Source: a virus
Lineage: Duplodnaviria > Heunggongvirae > Uroviricota > Caudoviricetes
DNA: 6,641 bases
Virus record (IMG/VR): IMGVR_UViG_2695420589_000005
Direction: 5' to 3' (one strand)
Position numbers and translations under genes: made by a program
Shown: in pieces, positions 1 through 6,641 of the stretch
How the letters are laid out: each line of letters starts with the position of its first letter
Position numbering within the stretch: position 1 is the stretch's first letter
The notes under the pieces: generated by a model
Told to the model about the DNA's origin: nothing
Seen by the model: the letters and a program-made list of their open reading frames with translations, nothing else
The model's database searches: none

Positions 1-41
1 CGCCGGGCATGTGCCAGAATCGCTGATTCAGTCTGTGTCAT
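1..41 (-). CDS. K: tail assembly protein K, 5' fragment (first 13 codons; gene continues beyond window start)
   Basis: ATG at 39-41 (reverse complement), 10 nt downstream of the L stop at 52-54. Hand translation MTQTESAILAHAR matches my recollection of the lambda gpK N-terminus. Position directly after L as in lambda. Confidence 0.65.
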   Translation of the reverse strand, partial: MTQTESAILAHAR

Positions 42-51
42 AAACCGGGAT

Positions 52-750
52 TTACTGCGAAAGTTTATTAATGGAAAGGAAACCGCCAAAATTGCCGACA
101 TTCCTGCGCAGTTCACACCCGCGCATGCACTTGCTGCATCTGTCCTTACGGATATCCGTGGTGGGGTTGTCGAACTCATCCGCCACCGCAGGACCGTTAT
201 ACCCGCATTCATCTCCCCGGTAATCCCACATACAGGTGTTCGCCAGCATGATGCGACCGGGAAACAGCGCCCCGTCCGTCTCGGTCGGTGTAGCCAGCAC
301 AAACGAGGCCGTCATGGCTGTCAGCTGCGACATCTGCTCCACCACCCAGCGGTCACTCAGCTCCTGCTCCGGGTCCGCCTCCGGATTGCCCGCAACGAAA
401 TTCACCGCATCCAGAAAACGGGCATACACCCGGCGGCGGACCACCGTGGCCCCCACCAGACTCTGCAGGTCTTCCGCCATCCCGGTGACCAGACCGAACA
501 GATTGGACACCGTCAGCGACGGTCTGGCACTGCTGCCCCGGCCGTTCATCTCAAAGCCGCTGCCGTCAATCGGGTATGCCTCATACTTACGCCCCTGCCA
601 GGTGACCGGCTCCCCTTTTTCATTCAGCTCATTACAGAAAAAATACCGCTCACCACCCTGTACCGTCAGGTCGATTTCCCAGAGTACCACCCGCGGTGAC
701 TGCTCTGACTTAACCGACTCGTTCAGACTTTCTTCGCGAATATCCTGCAT
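52..750 (-). CDS. L: minor tail protein L (lambda gpL-like), 232 aa
   Basis: Complete ORF in the track, same length as lambda gpL (232 aa) and near-collinear with it from MQDIR... to ...GNFGGFLSINKLSQ, including the Cys-rich C-terminal part. ATG at 748-750 overlaps the M stop (ATGA). AGGTGG Shine-Dalgarno at 758-763. Confidence 0.95.
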   Translation of the reverse strand: MQDIREESLNESVKSEQSPRVVLWEIDLTVQGGERYFFCNELNEKGEPVTWQGRKYEAYPIDGSGFEMNGRGSSARPSLTVSNLFGLVTGMAEDLQSLVGATVVRRRVYARFLDAVNFVAGNPEADPEQELSDRWVVEQMSQLTAMTASFVLATPTETDGALFPGRIMLANTCMWDYRGDECGYNGPAVADEFDNPTTDIRKDRCSKCMRGCELRRNVGNFGGFLSINKLSQ

Positions 751-1079
751 CAGTTCACCACCTGCTTAAACTCCGCGCTGAACTCAACGCGCAACATCCC
801 GACCCGCGCAGACCACCCGGCACAGGTCACCTTTATCTGCCGGTATGCATAGGGTGGCTTCCACAAAAATGCCTTCCAGCCACCGTGCTCTGCCAGGAAC
901 GCTTCCAGATGCCGGGCCTCCTCCCGGGTCACGGAAAGCGTCACCCTGTATGTTTTCAGGTCAGCATTCAGCCCTGCCGCCATACGCTGTGAGTACCCGT
1001 CACCAAAACGCACTTCACGCACCGATGGCTGCGAGTTCACCTCCATATCCGGCTTCACTTTCCAGCGAAAGGTTTTCAT
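750..1079 (-). CDS. M: minor tail protein M (lambda gpM-like), 109 aa
   Basis: Complete 109-aa ORF, same length as lambda gpM, sitting between H and L. ATG at 1077-1079 overlaps the H stop TGA at 1076-1078 (ATGA). Confidence 0.93.
   Translation of the reverse strand: MKTFRWKVKPDMEVNSQPSVREVRFGDGYSQRMAAGLNADLKTYRVTLSVTREEARHLEAFLAEHGGWKAFLWKPPYAYRQIKVTCAGWSARVGMLRVEFSAEFKQVVN
758..763 (-). promoter_or_regulatory. Shine-Dalgarno AGGTGG for L, 7-nt spacer, embedded in the 3' end of M
   Basis: Plus strand ccacct at 758-763; minus strand reads AGGTGGTGAACTG-ATG. Confidence 0.55.
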
Positions 1080-3802
1080 CCACCGCTCCCTGATAACATA
1101 CCGCCATCACGCAACTGCAGCCGGAGTTCATCCTGTGCCCCCTTGCGGGCCATCTCATACACCGCTTTCATCAGCTGCGGCCCTGCCCGCCCGTTGGGGC
1201 CGTCGTTCTGAATCACCACGTGATTGTTCTGATTAAAATTAATGCCTTCAGCCCGCCGCATCTGCGCCGGACTTCCGGCACCGCCGACATAACCACCTTC
1301 CGCATAGCCCCGCATCAGGCGGTACAGATTGCCGACACCAATCCGGCTGGTCGCCTCCTTCGTGAAGACAAACTCCCCGCGATGAACAATCCCCGCAGGT
1401 TCATATTTACCCCCCGTCCCCGTAAATCCCCCGGTCGCGAAATGGAAGTTCGCCGCCGCAGCCTGAATGGCCGTCCCCGTGGAGGCAGACGCACCACCAC
1501 CGAAAGCACCGCCAATGGCGCTGCCGATACTCCCGACTATCCCCACCATCGCCTGCTTCAGAAAAATCTCTGTCAGCATGGACAGCACAGAACGGGTGAA
1601 ACCACGCCAGTTCTGTTCGCTGCCGATCAGCATCGCTGCCATATTCTGTGCAATACCGTCAAAGGTCTGCGTGGCCGCGTTTTTAACCTGCGAAAAACTG
1701 TCCGTCGCACTTTCCGCCCACTCGCCCCAGCCGGACTTCATNNNNNNNNNNNNNNNNNNNNNNNNNNNNNNNNNNNNNNNNNNTCCACGAAGCTGCTCCT
1801 CCGCAGACCAGGTGTTCTTCAGTGCAGATGTGGCCTTCGCCAGCGCAGCCGGATTATCACCGTACACCTCACGAAGGCGCTGCTCTTCCGACTCCCGCTG
1901 CGCCTGACGGTCGGTGAGTCNNNNNNNNNNNNNNNNNNNNNNNNNNNNNNNNNNNNNNNNNNNNNNNNNNNNNNNNNNNNNNNNNNNNNNNNNNNNGCCG
2001 CCTGCTGTGCCAGCTCATTCAGCCGTTTCTGGTGTTCAATCTTGTCGCCCAGCTCAGCCAGCTGGCGTTTGTACTCCAGCGTTTCTTTCTCATGGGCCAG
2101 CAGGGATTTTTCCTGCTCAGATAACTGCCGTTTCGTGGCGGCCTCTTTCAGGACCACATACTGATTTTCCGCTTTCCATAAATCACGGCGCTGCTGGCTG
2201 ATTTTTTCATTCGCACCGCTGTGCTTCTCCAGCGTCCTGAGCTCAGTTTCAAGCGCCAGCAGGGCTGCATGCGCCTGGTCTTCCTGGCGCTCACCGGCAG
2301 ACACCTTCACACCGGACGGCTTTTTCTGCGTCGACTCATAATCCTTTTTTGCCGACGCCATCAGCGTGTTGTAATCCGCCTGCAGGATTTTCCCGTCTTT
2401 CAGGGCCTTATTCAGCTCTTCCTGCCGGGCGGTATATTTCTCCAGTGGCGTCAGCAGGCGCTCATACGCCTTCTGCGCCTCTCCGGTATACTTCAGCTGT
2501 GACGACTCACGCTCAGCCCTGTCCCTTGCCGCCAGTTCACCGGCTTTTTCCATATCCGACTGCAGCGTTGCCGCTGCCAGACCCAGACGGGCATTTTCCC
2601 GGTCATCCCATGCGCCCTGAAGGTTGGCCCGGAAAGAGGAGGTTTTACCGCGGCGCTGGCTCCGACTCTGGTACCACTGCCATTTTTTATCCGCCTCATC
2701 AAATGCCTTCTGCGCACTGGCGAGCATATCCGCTGAGGATTCCGGACGACCGATATCCAGAATGGCATCCCACATCGATTTGAATGCCTTCCCTGTTTTA
2801 TCCGCCCAGGTCTCCAGTGTTCCCATGTTTTCTTTCAGGCGACGGGTCTGCTCATCAAAGCCTTTCGTGGCGATATCGTTCGCCGCCTGCAATGCCCCGG
2901 CCTCGTCTCCGGAACGCTGCAGCTGTGCAACATACGCAATCTGCTCTGCCGTCACGTTACGGAACTGGCGCGCCATCGCCATCAGTCCCGACNNNNNNNN
3001 NNNNNNNNNNNNNNNNNNNNNNNNNNNNNNNNNNNNNNNNNNNNNNNNNNNNNNNNNNNNNNNNNNNNNNNNNNNNNNNNNNNNNNNNNNNNNNNNNNNN
3101 NNNNNNNNNNNNNNNNNNNNNNNNNNNNNNNNNNNNNNNNNNNNNNNNNNNNNNNNNNNNNNNNNNNNNNNNNNNNNNNNNNNNNNNNNNNNNNNNNNNN
3201 NNNNNNNNNNNNNNNNNNNNNNNNNNNNNNNNNNNNNNNNNNNNNNNNNNNNNNNNNNNNNNNNNNNNNNNNNNNNNNNNNNNNNNNNNNNNNNNNNNNN
3301 NNNNNNNNNNNNNNNNNNNNNNNNNNNNNNNNNNNNNNNNNNNNNNNNNNNNNNNNNNNNNNNNNNNNNNNNNNNNNNNNNNNNNNNNNNNNNNNNNNNN
3401 NNNNNNNNNNNNNNNNNNNNNNNNNNNNNNNNNNNNNNNNNNNNNNNNGATCGCATCGGCAAGCCCCCTGAACATGGGGATCATCCCGCCGAAGGAGTCC
3501 TTCACCTGACCGCCCTGTTGCAGCAGGATCAGCCAGGGATTCTGACCACCGGCAAGCTGCGTGGCGATATCCGTAAACTGTGCGGGCAGGGTTCGCATGG
3601 CCGCTTTATACTGCCCGACGGAAATCCCGGCTTTTTGTGCAGCCAGCGCCTGGCGGCTCAGGCCCTGTTCAACAGCACTGGCGGTTTTTCTGGCGTCGGT
3701 ATCCAGACCTGAAAAATGACGCCTTACCCGGCTCATCTGCTCATCGAAACGGACAGCATCCAGACTCAGGTCAATAACAAGATCACCAACCGGCTGGGAC
3801 AT
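1076..3802 (-). CDS. H: tail tape measure protein H (lambda gpH-like); nominally 908 codons, interrupted by three N runs with frame breaks across two of them
   Basis: N-terminus MSQPVGDLVIDLSLDAVRFDEQMSRVRRHF... (ATG 3800-3802). Central segment SGLMAMARQFRNVTAEQIAYVAQLQRSGDEAG...KISQQRRDLWKAENQ... (1997-2992). C-terminal segment ...YGDNPAALA...GSIGSAIGGAFGGG...HVVIQNDGPNGRAGPQLMKAVYEMARKGAQDE... ending at TGA 1076-1078. All three resemble lambda gpH as I recall it. Segments lie in frames 1/0/1 (first-base coordinate mod 3), see findings. Confidence 0.85.
1742..1783. other. run of 42 N (masked or unsequenced) inside H; reading frame preserved across it
   Basis: Directly visible; the H frame is the same on both sides. 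Confidence 1.
1921..1996. other. run of 76 N inside H; reading frame changes across it
   Basis: Directly visible; H-like translation is in frame 0 upstream (1997-2992) and frame 1 downstream (1076-1920). Confidence 1.
2993..3448. other. run of 456 N inside H; reading frame changes across it although the length is a multiple of 3
   Basis: Directly visible; H-like translation is in frame 1 upstream (3449-3802) and frame 0 downstream. Confidence 1.
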
Positions 3803-4062
3803 ATCTCACACCTCCCGGAATCCCCGCTGAAGCCATCATTAATGCGGCATCATCCACCATGACATCCGCCACATCCGCAGACGATAAAATATCGCGCCCT
3901 CCGTCCCCANNNNNNNNNNNNNNNNNNNNNNCGAACCGGACGCCTCCGGCAAGTCCTGCCGCTTTCTGCATCAGCATTTTGTCCTCATCCGGCCTCTCCA
4001 CCTGCTCTTCCTCATGCCGGGGGACAAGCAGACTGAAATCAGAGGGATGCATATCCGGATCG
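3783..4062 (-). CDS. T: tail assembly protein T (C-terminal part of the G-T frameshift product), 3' portion only; 5' part lies in the masked run 4063-4553
   Basis: Only one minus-strand frame (first-base mod 3 = 2) is free of stops across 3786-4062; the other two contain stops (e.g. 3806-3808, 3836-3841, 3850-3852, 3971-3973, 3985-3987). It ends ...AGIPGGVRYVPAGW with TGA at 3783-3785, overlapping the H start. Position between G and H as in lambda. The listed N-terminal Met of the track ORF is not a real start. Confidence 0.6.
3809..3815 (-). promoter_or_regulatory. Shine-Dalgarno GGAGGTG for H, 6-nt spacer to ATG
   Basis: Plus strand cacctcc at 3809-3815 is GGAGGTG on the minus strand, followed by TGAGAT then ATG 3800-3802. 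Lies inside the 3' end of the T reading frame. Confidence 0.6.
3910..3931. other. run of 22 N inside the T 3' region; the single open frame is the same on both sides
   Basis: Directly visible. Confidence 1.
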
Positions 4063-4553
4063 NNNNNNNNNNNNNNNNNNNNNNNNNNNNNNNNNNNNNN
4101 NNNNNNNNNNNNNNNNNNNNNNNNNNNNNNNNNNNNNNNNNNNNNNNNNNNNNNNNNNNNNNNNNNNNNNNNNNNNNNNNNNNNNNNNNNNNNNNNNNNN
4201 NNNNNNNNNNNNNNNNNNNNNNNNNNNNNNNNNNNNNNNNNNNNNNNNNNNNNNNNNNNNNNNNNNNNNNNNNNNNNNNNNNNNNNNNNNNNNNNNNNNN
4301 NNNNNNNNNNNNNNNNNNNNNNNNNNNNNNNNNNNNNNNNNNNNNNNNNNNNNNNNNNNNNNNNNNNNNNNNNNNNNNNNNNNNNNNNNNNNNNNNNNNN
4401 NNNNNNNNNNNNNNNNNNNNNNNNNNNNNNNNNNNNNNNNNNNNNNNNNNNNNNNNNNNNNNNNNNNNNNNNNNNNNNNNNNNNNNNNNNNNNNNNNNNN
4501 NNNNNNNNNNNNNNNNNNNNNNNNNNNNNNNNNNNNNNNNNNNNNNNNNNNNN
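4063..4553. other. run of 491 N covering the 3' end of G, the expected G-T slippery site and most of T
   Basis: Directly visible. Confidence 1.
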
Positions 4554-4824
4554 TGGTGAGCACTTCCTGCTCTATCTTCATCACGGCCTCATTCATTGAC
4601 GGTGACTGCGTTTTCTGTGGATGGTTATGCCACAGGGACATCGCCACCAGAAACGCGCCGGTTCTGACGAGATCTTCCACGCTTACCTGCAGGTTGCCGC
4701 TGGATTCTGCCTGTTCTGCACGCCGTTTCAGGAGGGCAAGATGCTCGATACGCTGCAGCGCAGACAATTCGGAAAGCGTGACAGACACACCGTTATATTC
4801 AAATTGTTCTGTTTTCAGAAACAT
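4554..4824 (-). CDS. G: tail assembly chaperone G (lambda gpG-like), 5' 90 codons; 3' end and the G-T slippery site lie in the masked run 4063-4553
   Basis: ATG at 4822-4824 preceded by GGAGGT (4830-4835) with a 5-nt spacer. Translation MFLKTEQFEYNGVSVTLSELSALQRIEHLALLKRRAEQAES...WHNHPQKTQSPSMNEAVMKIEQEVLT matches the lambda gpG N-terminal region as I recall it. The end coordinate given is the last unmasked base, not the true stop. Confidence 0.85.
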
Positions 4825-4829
4825 GTATT

Positions 4830-4835
4830 ACCTCC
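4830..4835 (-). promoter_or_regulatory. Shine-Dalgarno GGAGGT for G, 5-nt spacer
   Basis: 13-nt V-G intergenic region reads TAA-ACGGAGGTAATAC-ATG on the minus strand. Confidence 0.65.
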
Positions 4836-4837
4836 GT

Positions 4838-5590
4838 TTACCCTGCAGCGCCCGCTTCAGTAACGGTGACTTCAGCCACTGCGGCGAACTGACCATTTCC
4901 GCTCACCACAGGGATCTGCACCTTACCTGTCGCCACGCCGTTTACCGTAATTGTCATATCTTTCACACTAATGGTGGCTTTCGACGGATCGGCGGAAACC
5001 GCTCTGAACGTCTTGTCGGTTGCACTTTCCGGCTCAAAAGAAACCGTCAGGGTGGTTGTTTTCCCTTTTGCCACCGTACCGGATGTCGGCGTCACCTTAA
5101 TCGCACTGACCGGCGTAATTTTGCTGCGTTCTTCCGCTACAGAAGGTTTACCCACGTTAGTGACTTTCACCGTGCGGGTGATCACTTCTTTCGCCGTCAC
5201 GGCCTTACCGATACTGCTGACCCAGCCACGAAACACATCCACCGTGCCATTCGGAAAACGGATTTTATAGGCCCGGACATCGCCGCTTTCAAACCAGCCT
5301 ATAAGCCCTTTCTGGCCTTCCTCTCCCGGTTTCCAGGCCAGCGTAAAACTGGTATCACCTGCAGATTTCTGCCCCTGCCCGGTCGCGCTCCAGTCCGCGT
5401 CTTCATCATCCAGGTAGTTATCATCATAGGATTCAGCCGTCATCTCGCCCGGCGTCAGATCCTTCACCTTAGCCAGTCGCTGCCAGTCATCGTCTGACAA
5501 CGGGTTTGCATAAGCATCAGCCTTGCCGTTGTAAACCCACAGAGTGGTACCGGCACCTTTTACCGGCTCCAGGGGATTTGGTGTTGCCAT
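4838..5590 (-). CDS. V: major tail tube protein V (lambda gpV-like), 250 aa, with C-terminal Ig-like (Big_2-type) domain
   Basis: Complete ORF. N-terminal domain ...[12 protein letters not shown]...[30 protein letters not shown]...[41 protein letters not shown] is highly lambda gpV-like. GAGGA Shine-Dalgarno at 5595-5599. TAA stop at 4838-4840. Confidence 0.95.
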
Positions 5591-5594
5591 ATCG

Positions 5595-5599
5595 TCCTC
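5595..5599 (-). promoter_or_regulatory. Shine-Dalgarno GAGGA for V, overlapping the U stop codon
   Basis: Minus strand reads TGTGAGGACGAT-ATG with ATG at 5588-5590; the U stop TGA is 5598-5600. Confidence 0.55.
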
Positions 5600-5993
5600 A
5601 CATCTCGTATGTAATGGAATAAGTCAGATCCGCAGAGCTCCATAACGCCATATCGTCATCACGACGATACTCATAGCCCTGCGTAACCATCGTGGTAATC
5701 AGTCCTGCCAGTGCAGGGATCGCAGTCATCGCCGGATAAATCCGGCTTTCCATCCACTGATCGAGCTCCGAATCAGGTACCTGTGCCGGTAAAAACACCT
5801 CAATATGCAGTGTGGCCCGCCAGGTATCTGCATCCAGCTCTTCACCGGTATACTCTGCATCCGTCAGATAAACCGCGATCGCAGGAAAATCCTCTTCGTC
5901 AAAAACAACGGGGCGACCATCAAACAGCGTCGCCCCGTGTTCATGCTGCTCGAGTGCATCCAGCACTGCGGCACGAATGTCAGTGTGTTTCAT
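5598..5993 (-). CDS. U: tail tube terminator protein U (lambda gpU-like), 131 aa
   Basis: Complete 131-aa ORF, same length as lambda gpU; [33 protein letters not shown]...[23 protein letters not shown] matches lambda gpU along its whole length. ATG at 5991-5993 overlaps the Z stop (ATGA). Confidence 0.95.
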
Positions 5994-6565
5994 CGTTTTA
6001 TCGCAATCCTCAGTTGTTGTTTCAGCGCGTATGCCAGTTCTTTAGGCAGGCGTTCACGCCGGATACGGTCAACATTCTCATCAAATGCCTGTTTCAGTGG
6101 GGCCGCCATCGGGATTTTCACCACCTGAATGGGAAGGCGATTACGCTTTTTCCTTCCCTTGTCGTCATTGCCCTCCTCATATCTGGCCTGGGGAAGACGT
6201 TGCATAACATGCCAGCGCCCATTATTTAATCGCTGGATAAATGCCCGCTGATAACGATGCTGACCGGCTTTGAGTATGCTGTTCGGACGACGCCCCAGCA
6301 TTCTGATCCCCAGCTTAATCACAGGGAGATCACCGCGGTTAACGATAATTCTGGCATTCGGATTTCTGACCGTCGCCCGTTTCAGTCTGGACCGTTCCTT
6401 TACCAGTTTCCGTCTCACCCTGGTTTCCCGGGCAACCTGTGACGAAGACTGATTAATCGCCGTTGTGGCCACGCGGTTAATGGTCATTGCAGAAGCAGCC
6501 GGAATGGCGTTTTTACGAACCCGGCTCAGATTGTCAATCGCCTGATCAAGCCCTTTTATCGCCAT
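5990..6565 (-). CDS. Z: tail completion protein Z (lambda gpZ-like), 191 aa
   Basis: Complete ORF of lambda gpZ size, located between FII and U as in lambda. ATG at 6563-6565 preceded by AGGGTG (6570-6575). Stop overlaps the U start. Confidence 0.9.
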   Translation of the reverse strand: MAIKGLDQAIDNLSRVRKNAIPAASAMTINRVATTAINQSSSQVARETRVRRKLVKERSRLKRATVRNPNARIIVNRGDLPVIKLGIRMLGRRPNSILKAGQHRYQRAFIQRLNNGRWHVMQRLPQARYEEGNDDKGRKKRNRLPIQVVKIPMAAPLKQAFDENVDRIRRERLPKELAYALKQQLRIAIKR

Positions 6566-6569
6566 AATT

Positions 6570-6575
6570 CACCCT
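6570..6575 (-). promoter_or_regulatory. Shine-Dalgarno AGGGTG for Z, 4-nt spacer
   Basis: Minus strand reads TAA-ACGCAGGGTGAATT-ATG between the FII stop and the Z start. Confidence 0.5.
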
Positions 6576-6579
6576 GCGT

Positions 6580-6641
6580 TTATCGTCGCCGGTTAACTGC
6601 GGGTGGTTGCCCACGGTTGAGCCAGAGATAACAGCTGCCCC
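6580..6641 (-). CDS. FII: head-tail joining protein FII (lambda gpFII-like), 3' fragment (last about 20 codons; gene begins beyond window end)
   Basis: Hand translation of the minus strand gives ...GSCYLWLNRGQPPAVNRRR then TAA at 6580-6582, resembling the lambda gpFII C-terminus (...LWLGRGVPPAVNRRR as I recall). Sits 14 nt upstream of the Z start. Confidence 0.75.
   Translation of the reverse strand, partial: GSCYLWLNRGQPPAVNRRR

What the first reader, a model, noticed from the sequence alone, without database searches (positions are those of the whole stretch)
3783..4824. G-T frameshift chaperone cassette is almost entirely masked, and its frames do not fit a -1 shift at nominal gap length
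In lambda-like phages gpG and the gpGT fusion are made in a fixed ratio by a programmed -1 ribosomal frameshift at a slippery heptamer (GGGAAAG in lambda) near the 3' end of G. Here the G start (4824) and the T 3' end (stop 3783-3785) are readable, but the slippery site and most of T lie in the 491-N run. With the nominal coordinates G is in frame 0 and the open T frame is frame 2, which is +1 rather than -1 relative to G. Either the gap length is off by 1 or 2 mod 3, or the junction is organised differently from lambda.
Basis: partly seen in the sequence, partly recalled or inferred. Interest (0 to 1): 0.45.

Follow-up and report, generated by a model that had tools for sequence, protein, structure and literature searches.

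The report
Ordinary lambda G-T frameshift; gap-length artefact
This is the ordinary lambda-type tail-chaperone gene pair G/T of an E. coli prophage, and the apparent "wrong" reading frame arises only because the runs of N in the window are longer than the DNA they replace.

Summary
At nominal coordinates, G start (4824) to T stop (3783) spans 1042 nt (3n+1), so T sits +1 to G. That offset is an artefact of the N runs.

Contigs and E. coli genomes match the readable flanks at 99-100% identity. In them the 491-N run stands for 342 nt and the 22-N run for 1 nt. All five N runs in the window are inflated, by 27, 20, 106, 21 and 149 nt. The single-ORF tape-measure gene H also changes frame across them, which serves as an internal control.

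The corrected span is 872 nt (3n-1). In every relative with this G type:
- G is 143 aa.
- The lambda heptamer G_GGA_AAG lies in frame at G nt 408-414, 18 nt before the G stop.
- A -1 shift there gives a 290-aa GT fusion that ends at the window's T stop.

G and T match the lambda-specific family models. The 872-nt sequence occurs ungapped at >=99% identity in 854 complete E. coli genome records.

The window's own masked bases were not recovered, so the slip site is inferred, not read. The cassette is already known; interest is low.

The parts
4838..5590 (-). Major tail protein gene V (250 aa), immediately upstream of G
   Evidence: ORF. Annotated 'phage tail protein' / 'major tail protein V' in relatives.
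4831..4835 (-). Shine-Dalgarno GGAGG, 6 nt upstream of the G start codon
   Evidence: Read directly from the sequence.
4554..4824 (-). Readable 5' part of G (codons 1-90 plus 1 nt), a tail assembly chaperone
   Evidence: PF06894 Phage_TAC_2, E = 1.1e-39 on these 90 aa. 100% identical to L012 and 82% to lambda gpG.
4063..4553 (-). 491-N run. In relatives it stands for 342 nt: G nt 272-432 (3' end of G, with slippery G_GGA_AAG at G nt 408-414 and the G stop at 430-432) and the first ~200 nt of the T frame. Counted from the G side, the heptamer would fall at about 4417-4411.
   Evidence: Flank mapping to L003 and L012. Heptamer and frames in 19 loci. Not readable in the window itself.
3932..4062 (-). 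Readable middle part of the T frame (-1 frame of G once gap length is corrected)
   Evidence: 100% identical to L012, L001 and L003. Aligns to the lambda gpGT T domain.
3910..3931 (-). 22-N run standing for a single base (G) in relatives. The excess of 21 nt is frame-neutral.
   Evidence: Flanks map to L001 4722/4720, L003 3563/3561 and L012 11515/11517.
3783..3909 (-). Readable 3' end of T, including stop TGA (3785-3783). It overlaps the H start by 20 nt.
   Evidence: 100% identical to L012.
1076..3802 (-). Tape measure gene H, interrupted by three N runs (2993-3448, 1921-1996, 1742-1783). It serves as the internal control for unreliable N lengths.
   Evidence: H-like translations appear in three ORF pieces in two different frames. 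The real gaps are 350, 56 and 15 nt, against 456, 76 and 42 N.

Best explanation
The region is a canonical lambda-type tail assembly chaperone cassette of an E. coli lambdoid prophage, read on the minus strand.

Inferred from relatives with identical flanks:
- Most ribosomes translating G stop after 143 codons and make gpG.
- At the heptamer G_GGA_AAG, 18 nt before the G stop, a few per cent of ribosomes slip back one base. The P-site tRNA-Gly re-pairs from GGA to GGG and the A-site tRNA-Lys from AAG to AAA.
- These ribosomes continue in the T frame and make a 290-aa gpGT fusion that ends at the window's TGA (3785-3783).

From the literature on lambda:
- The G parts of gpG and gpGT coat the tape measure protein H.
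- The T domain recruits the major tail protein V.
- Neither protein ends up in the virion.
- A fixed ratio of about 30:1 is needed for tail assembly.

Shown here: the apparent +1 relationship of the frames is an artefact. The N runs do not preserve length, and the 491-N run replaces 342 nt.
For: (1) Gene order Z-U-V-G-T-H-M-L on the minus strand, with the same order and annotation in relatives.

(2) All six readable segments align end to end with relatives: 99-100% identity to L003 and 100% to IMG/VR contig L012 over window 457-6641. The five gaps are 15, 56, 350, 1 and 342 nt, against 42, 76, 456, 22 and 491 N. L004, L011 and L021-L024 give the same gap sizes wherever they cover the gaps.

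(3) H is one continuous 2574-nt CDS in L003. At nominal N lengths in the window it falls into different frames, as predicted by excesses of 106 (= 1 mod 3) and 20 (= 2 mod 3).

(4) In 19 loci G is 143 aa, GGGAAAG lies in frame at G nt 408-414, the fusion is 290 aa and the span is 872 nt.

(5) The site context is almost identical to lambda: TTTCTGCGGGAAAGT(C/G)TTCGACGG. The GT fusion aligns with lambda gpGT along its whole length.

(6) Family matches: PF06894 (1.9e-51), PF06223 (1.5e-13), TIGR01674 (1.3e-49) and TIGR01715 (2.6e-62), the last two being equivalog models.

(7) The 872-nt reconstruction is present as a single ungapped piece at >=99% identity in 854 complete E. coli genome records.

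(8) The mechanism, the 30:1 ratio and the roles in lambda come from PMC5009743 and PMC3296357.
Against: The window's own masked bases were never seen. The source contig was not found in genome contigs, among the viral-contig hits or in metagenome contigs. The slip site and the true gap length in this particular copy are therefore inferred from relatives, not read. No expression data exist for this copy, and a prophage copy could carry a private mutation inside the masked part.
Confidence: 0.95

Rival explanations
1. The nominal N lengths are right. This copy carries about 149 extra bases between G and T and 21 extra in T, so T lies in the +1 frame. T would then be expressed differently from lambda, by a +1 shift or independent initiation, possibly around an inserted element.
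For: Only the nominal arithmetic: span 1042 = 3n+1. The masked bases cannot be read.
Against: All five N runs exceed the real gap in relatives whose flanks are 100% identical right up to the N boundaries. If the lengths were real, the tape measure gene H would be frameshifted twice, and a 21-nt insertion would sit exactly where one base is missing. Every row listed from the E. coli searches had the compact spacing: 1681 nt in the 25 rows and 6318 nt in the 30 rows. The spans of the unlisted records were not examined. The compact 872-nt form is ungapped in 854 records at >=99% identity.
Confidence: 0.02
2. The cassette is lambda-like in layout, but this particular prophage copy is defective inside the masked stretch (an indel, a stop, or a mutated heptamer), so no functional GT is made.
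For: Prophage tail genes often decay, and the masked 343 bases are unseen.
Against: Everything readable, 5554 nt across eight tail genes, is intact. It is 100% identical to L012 over window 457-6641, where G, the heptamer and GT are intact.
Confidence: 0.03

Closest known systems
Bacteriophage lambda genes G and T (gpG / gpGT, -1 programmed ribosomal frameshift at G_GGA_AAG; Levin, Hendrix and Casjens 1993, as cited in PMC5009743 and PMC3296357)
   Same: Same position between V and H. Same heptamer in the same codon register, with nearly identical flanking nucleotides. The G stop lies 18 nt after the heptamer, as in lambda. The readable N-terminal 90 aa of G are 82% identical to lambda gpG, and the reconstructed GT fusion aligns with lambda gpGT along its whole length. 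Both match the lambda-specific NCBIfam equivalog models.
   Different: G is 143 aa against 140, and GT is 290 aa against 279. The linker just upstream of the heptamer and the C-terminal third of T are diverged (40-60% nucleotide identity in 60-nt windows). T overlaps H by 20 nt rather than 8 nt.
gpG / T genes of E. coli lambdoid prophages as annotated in RefSeq (e.g. WP_000479116.1 and WP_001402970.1 in NZ_CP126952.1), Escherichia phage PhiR12 series, Stx-converting phages
   Same: 99.9% nucleotide identity over the readable parts of the cassette. The same 872-nt cassette is found at >=99% identity in 854 records.
   Different: Nothing biological. RefSeq annotates T as a separate CDS from an internal ATG (137 aa), not as a slippage-joined GT product.
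Sister variant of the same cassette with A_AAA_AAG (IMG/VR loci L006, L010, L015)
   Same: Same first 74 nt of G, same V, U and Z upstream, same -1 layout (span 863 = 3n-1), and a homologous T domain.
   Different: G is 140 aa with a diverged body. The heptamer is A_AAA_AAG at G nt 399-405, and GT is 287 aa. The window's readable G sequence shows that it is not this variant.

Membership tests
Lambda-type tail assembly chaperone G / GT with -1 programmed frameshift | Two overlapping ORFs located between the major tail protein gene and the tape measure gene | tested here: met
   V 5590-4838, G from 4824, T ending at 3783, H from 3802. Relatives carry the same annotation.
Lambda-type tail assembly chaperone G / GT with -1 programmed frameshift | Upstream ORF homologous to lambda gpG (PF06894 / TIGR01674) | tested here: met
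   The window's own 90 readable residues match PF06894 at E = 1.1e-39. The full-length G of identical-flank relatives matches TIGR01674 at 167.6 bits against a cut-off of 74.45.
Lambda-type tail assembly chaperone G / GT with -1 programmed frameshift | Downstream frame homologous to lambda T (PF06223 / TIGR01715) | tested here: met
   On the reconstructed GT: TIGR01715 at 208 bits (cut-off 77.35) and PF06223 at 51.4 bits. The window's readable T part alone gave no Pfam hit, but it is 100% identical in DNA to L012 and aligns to the C-terminal part of lambda gpGT.
Lambda-type tail assembly chaperone G / GT with -1 programmed frameshift | Slippery heptamer X_XXY_YYZ in the G frame shortly before the G stop | not testable with these tools
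   The site lies inside the 491-N run of the window. In 19 loci with this G type, including those with 100% identical flanks, G_GGA_AAG lies in frame at G nt 408-414, 18 nt before the stop.
Lambda-type tail assembly chaperone G / GT with -1 programmed frameshift | T frame is -1 relative to G (span from G start to T stop = 3n-1) | tested here: inconclusive
   In the window at nominal N lengths the span is 1042 = 3n+1, which does not meet the criterion. N lengths are shown to be unreliable by all five gaps and by the H control. With the gap sizes of the identical-flank relatives the span is 872 = 3n-1, which meets it.
Lambda-type tail assembly chaperone G / GT with -1 programmed frameshift | Both gpG and a minor gpGT fusion are produced (about 30:1), and both are required for tail assembly but absent from virions | not testable with these tools
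   Known for lambda only (PMC5009743; PMC3296357). No expression data exist for this prophage.

The most novel reading that the evidence does not exclude
The masked stretch of this particular copy really does contain about 150 extra bases between the G body and the T domain, for example a small inserted element. T would then lie in the +1 frame, and GT would be made by a non-lambda route (a +1 shift or separate initiation).
Probability: 0.02. Interest if true: 0.55.

Novelty: already known. Interest (0 to 1): 0.05.

Why it matters
It matters mainly as a caution. Runs of N in this window do not preserve length, so any frame, spacing or size argument made across them is unsafe. That includes the apparent breaks in the tape measure gene. 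Biologically the locus is a textbook lambda G/GT frameshift cassette, present almost unchanged in hundreds of E. coli genomes, so nothing new about recoding follows from it.

Tried and rejected
(1) Looking for the window's own source contig in order to read the masked bases. An exact 131-mer (window 5700-5830) gave 0 hits in genome contigs. In viral contigs it gave 21 hits, none of them identical over the whole window. L012 is 100% identical over 457-6641 but diverges before an N at its position 8215. A 130-mer from window 1-130 in metagenome contigs returned only mosaic relatives that share the L/M end. The source was not recovered.

(2) A real insertion or a +1 arrangement. Rejected because all five N runs are inflated and H would be frameshifted.

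(3) A known RNA family at the junction. Rfam gave only a chance-level lncRNA match, E = 0.17.

(4) A covariation test of the predicted hairpin downstream of the heptamer. Only 7 distinct sequences were available, with almost no variation in the stems, so the test was not informative and was not pursued.

(5) Lambda's own G-T taken as the filler. Rejected, because the window's readable G is only 82% identical to lambda gpG, whereas L012, L003 and similar loci match at 99-100%.

Full report
WHAT IS IN THE WINDOW. The minus strand carries a lambda-like tail module:
- Z, 6565-5990
- U, 5993-5598
- V, 5590-4838
- a G-like ORF starting at ATG 4824
- a T-like frame ending at TGA 3785-3783
- the tape measure gene H, from 3802 to 1076
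- M, 1079-750
- L, 750-52

The window contains five runs of N: 1742-1783 (42), 1921-1996 (76), 2993-3448 (456), 3910-3931 (22) and 4063-4553 (491).

CHECK OF THE OBSERVATION.
- G codons begin at positions = 0 mod 3 and T codons at positions = 2 mod 3.
- On the minus strand that is a +1 offset. The nominal span from G start to T stop is 1042 nt = 3n+1.
- A -1 frameshift cassette must span 3n-1. Lambda's spans 839 nt (9711-10549).

Two details are off.
- A second N run (22 N) lies inside T and is not mentioned in the finding.
- 'Almost entirely masked' overstates the case: 49% of the nominal positions are N, and about 39% of the real bases are missing.

THE N RUNS DO NOT PRESERVE LENGTH.
- A megablast of 3450-5300 against complete E. 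coli genomes found 772 records at >=99% identity. In all 25 listed rows the 1851-nt query spanned only 1681 nt.
- The whole 6641-nt window spans 6318 nt in all 30 listed rows of the whole-window search.
- I mapped each readable segment separately onto L003 (E. coli AREA_486; 99.0-100% identity, every segment aligned end to end). The real gaps are 15, 56, 350, 1 and 342 nt, so the N runs are too long by 27, 20, 106, 21 and 149 nt.
- An exact 131-mer search of IMG/VR returned 21 contigs. L012 matches window 457-6641 at 100% identity. L011 and L021-L024 match all or nearly all segments at 99.8-100%. Wherever they cover a gap, they give the same five gap sizes.
- The excess between G start and T stop is 149 + 21 = 170 = 2 mod 3. 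This turns a true span of 872 nt (3n-1) into the nominal 1042 (3n+1). The 22-N run is frame-neutral, so the whole discrepancy comes from the 491-N run.

INTERNAL CONTROL. H is one uninterrupted CDS of 2574 nt in L003. It needs no recoding. In the window at nominal lengths, H-like translation appears in three ORF pieces in two different frames: 2957-3802, 1819-3462 and 1076-1867. Excesses of 106 (= 1 mod 3), 20 (= 2 mod 3) and 27 (= 0 mod 3) predict exactly this. The frame jump at G-T is therefore the same artefact, not a peculiarity of the G-T junction.

WHAT THE MASKED STRETCH ALMOST CERTAINLY HOLDS.
- In 19 fetched loci with this G type, G is 143 aa. They include all those with 100% identical flanks.
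- GGGAAAG lies at G nt 408-414 in the register G_GGA_AAG, and the G stop follows 18 nt later.
- A -1 shift there opens a 290-aa fusion ending at the same TGA as in the window, with a span of 872 nt.
- The local sequence TTTCTGCGGGAAAGTCTTCGACGGCGAGCTGA differs from lambda's at a few positions only. The fusion aligns with lambda gpGT throughout, including ...SAGK|VFDGEL(N/S)FAL(R/K)LAREMGRPDWRAMLAGM....
- The window's readable first 90 residues of G are 100% identical to L012 and 82% identical to lambda gpG.
- Family models agree. On G: PF06894 at 1.9e-51 and TIGR01674 at 1.3e-49. On the reconstructed GT fusion: PF06223 at 1.5e-13 and TIGR01715 at 2.6e-62. The window's own 90-aa G fragment scores 1.1e-39 against PF06894.
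- The 872-nt reconstruction is found as a single ungapped piece at >=99% identity in 854 complete E. coli genome records. Genomes that have it carry a median of 2 and up to 8 copies.

MECHANISM. Shown in relatives by sequence: an in-frame X_XXY_YYZ heptamer identical to lambda's, a nearby 0-frame stop, and an open -1 frame encoding a T homologue.

Taken from the literature on lambda:
- About 4% of ribosomes slip -1 at GGGAAAG.
- This gives gpG:gpGT of about 30:1.
- Neither protein is in the virion.
- The ratio depends on the U34 modification of tRNA-Lys (PMC5009743; PMC3296357).

Inferred: this prophage copy works in the same way.

An RNA fold of the 100 nt after the heptamer predicts the same two-part hairpin in L012 and in lambda, starting 7-8 nt downstream. 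Over 100 nt the z-score is -3.65 for L012 and -1.55 for lambda; the 60-nt versions are not significant. Only seven distinct sequences were available, with almost no stem variation, so covariation could not be tested. The stretch also encodes the most conserved part of T. I make no claim about a stimulatory structure. Rfam has no family here.

WHAT REMAINS UNKNOWN.
- The window's own masked bases were not recovered. Genome contigs gave no hit, no IMG/VR hit was identical over the whole window, and the one metagenome scan returned only mosaic relatives.
- The slip site in this copy is therefore inferred. A private defect or insertion in the masked part cannot be strictly excluded. I put these at about 3% and 2%.
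- I also cannot say whether the N runs are scaffold gaps of estimated size or masks of altered length. Scaffold gaps are plausible, because this cassette is repeated within genomes. Either way the lengths are not informative.

COMPARISON AND NOVELTY. This is a member of the lambda G/GT family in every feature that could be tested. It is essentially identical to genes already annotated as 'phage tail assembly chaperone G' and 'phage tail assembly protein T' in hundreds of E. coli genomes. The cassette is already known, and the anomaly is an artefact.

VERDICT. Interest is 0.05.

Noticed in passing
window 1742-1783, 1921-1996, 2993-3448 (inside H): The three N runs in the tape measure gene are also too long: 42, 76 and 456 N against 15, 56 and 350 nt in relatives. 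H therefore appears split between two frames at nominal coordinates. Any length or frame argument across N runs in this window is unsafe.
   Followed up: yes
L006 6329-7191 (also L010, L015); mosaic junction at about window 4751: A sister variant shares Z, U, V and the first 74 nt of G with the window and then diverges. Its G is 140 aa, the slippery heptamer is A_AAA_AAG at G nt 399-405 instead of G_GGA_AAG, GT is 287 aa, and the span is 863 = 3n-1. So two different heptamers serve the same cassette within one mosaic phage group.
   Followed up: partly
L012 11747-11846 (minus strand); lambda L025 517-616: The 100 nt after the heptamer fold into the same predicted two-part hairpin in both phages, starting 7-8 nt downstream. 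The z-score is -3.65 in L012 and -1.55 in lambda. There was too little sequence variation for a covariation test, and the stretch also encodes the most conserved part of T.
   Followed up: partly
window 4556-5497 (+ strand); L001 3304-4638 (- strand in locus): A long ORF runs antisense to V and G. It is 313 aa in the window, where the N run cuts it, and 444 aa in the unmasked relative. It may simply reflect the absence of stops on the strand opposite a coding region; this was not examined.
   Followed up: no
window 1472-1508 (3' part of H): Fifteen of the 44 mismatches between the window and L003 are clustered in 37 nt of the Gly/Ala-rich part of H, while L012 is identical there. This may be a small recombination patch.
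   Followed up: no
L001 4435-4848; L003 3276-3689: RefSeq annotates T as a free-standing 137-aa CDS from an internal ATG, not as a ribosomal-slippage join with G. The GT fusion is therefore absent from the protein records of these genomes.
   Followed up: no
L012 3517-7139 and 8216-14077, single N at 8215: This IMG/VR contig carries two tail modules in the same orientation. One is about 80% identical to the window and the other 100%, and they are joined at a single N. The window's first 456 nt are not matched at that join. It may be a scaffolding join or two adjacent prophages.
   Followed up: no
window 3783-3802: T and H overlap by 20 nt: the H ATG at 3802-3800 lies inside the end of T. In lambda the overlap is 8 nt.
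   Followed up: no
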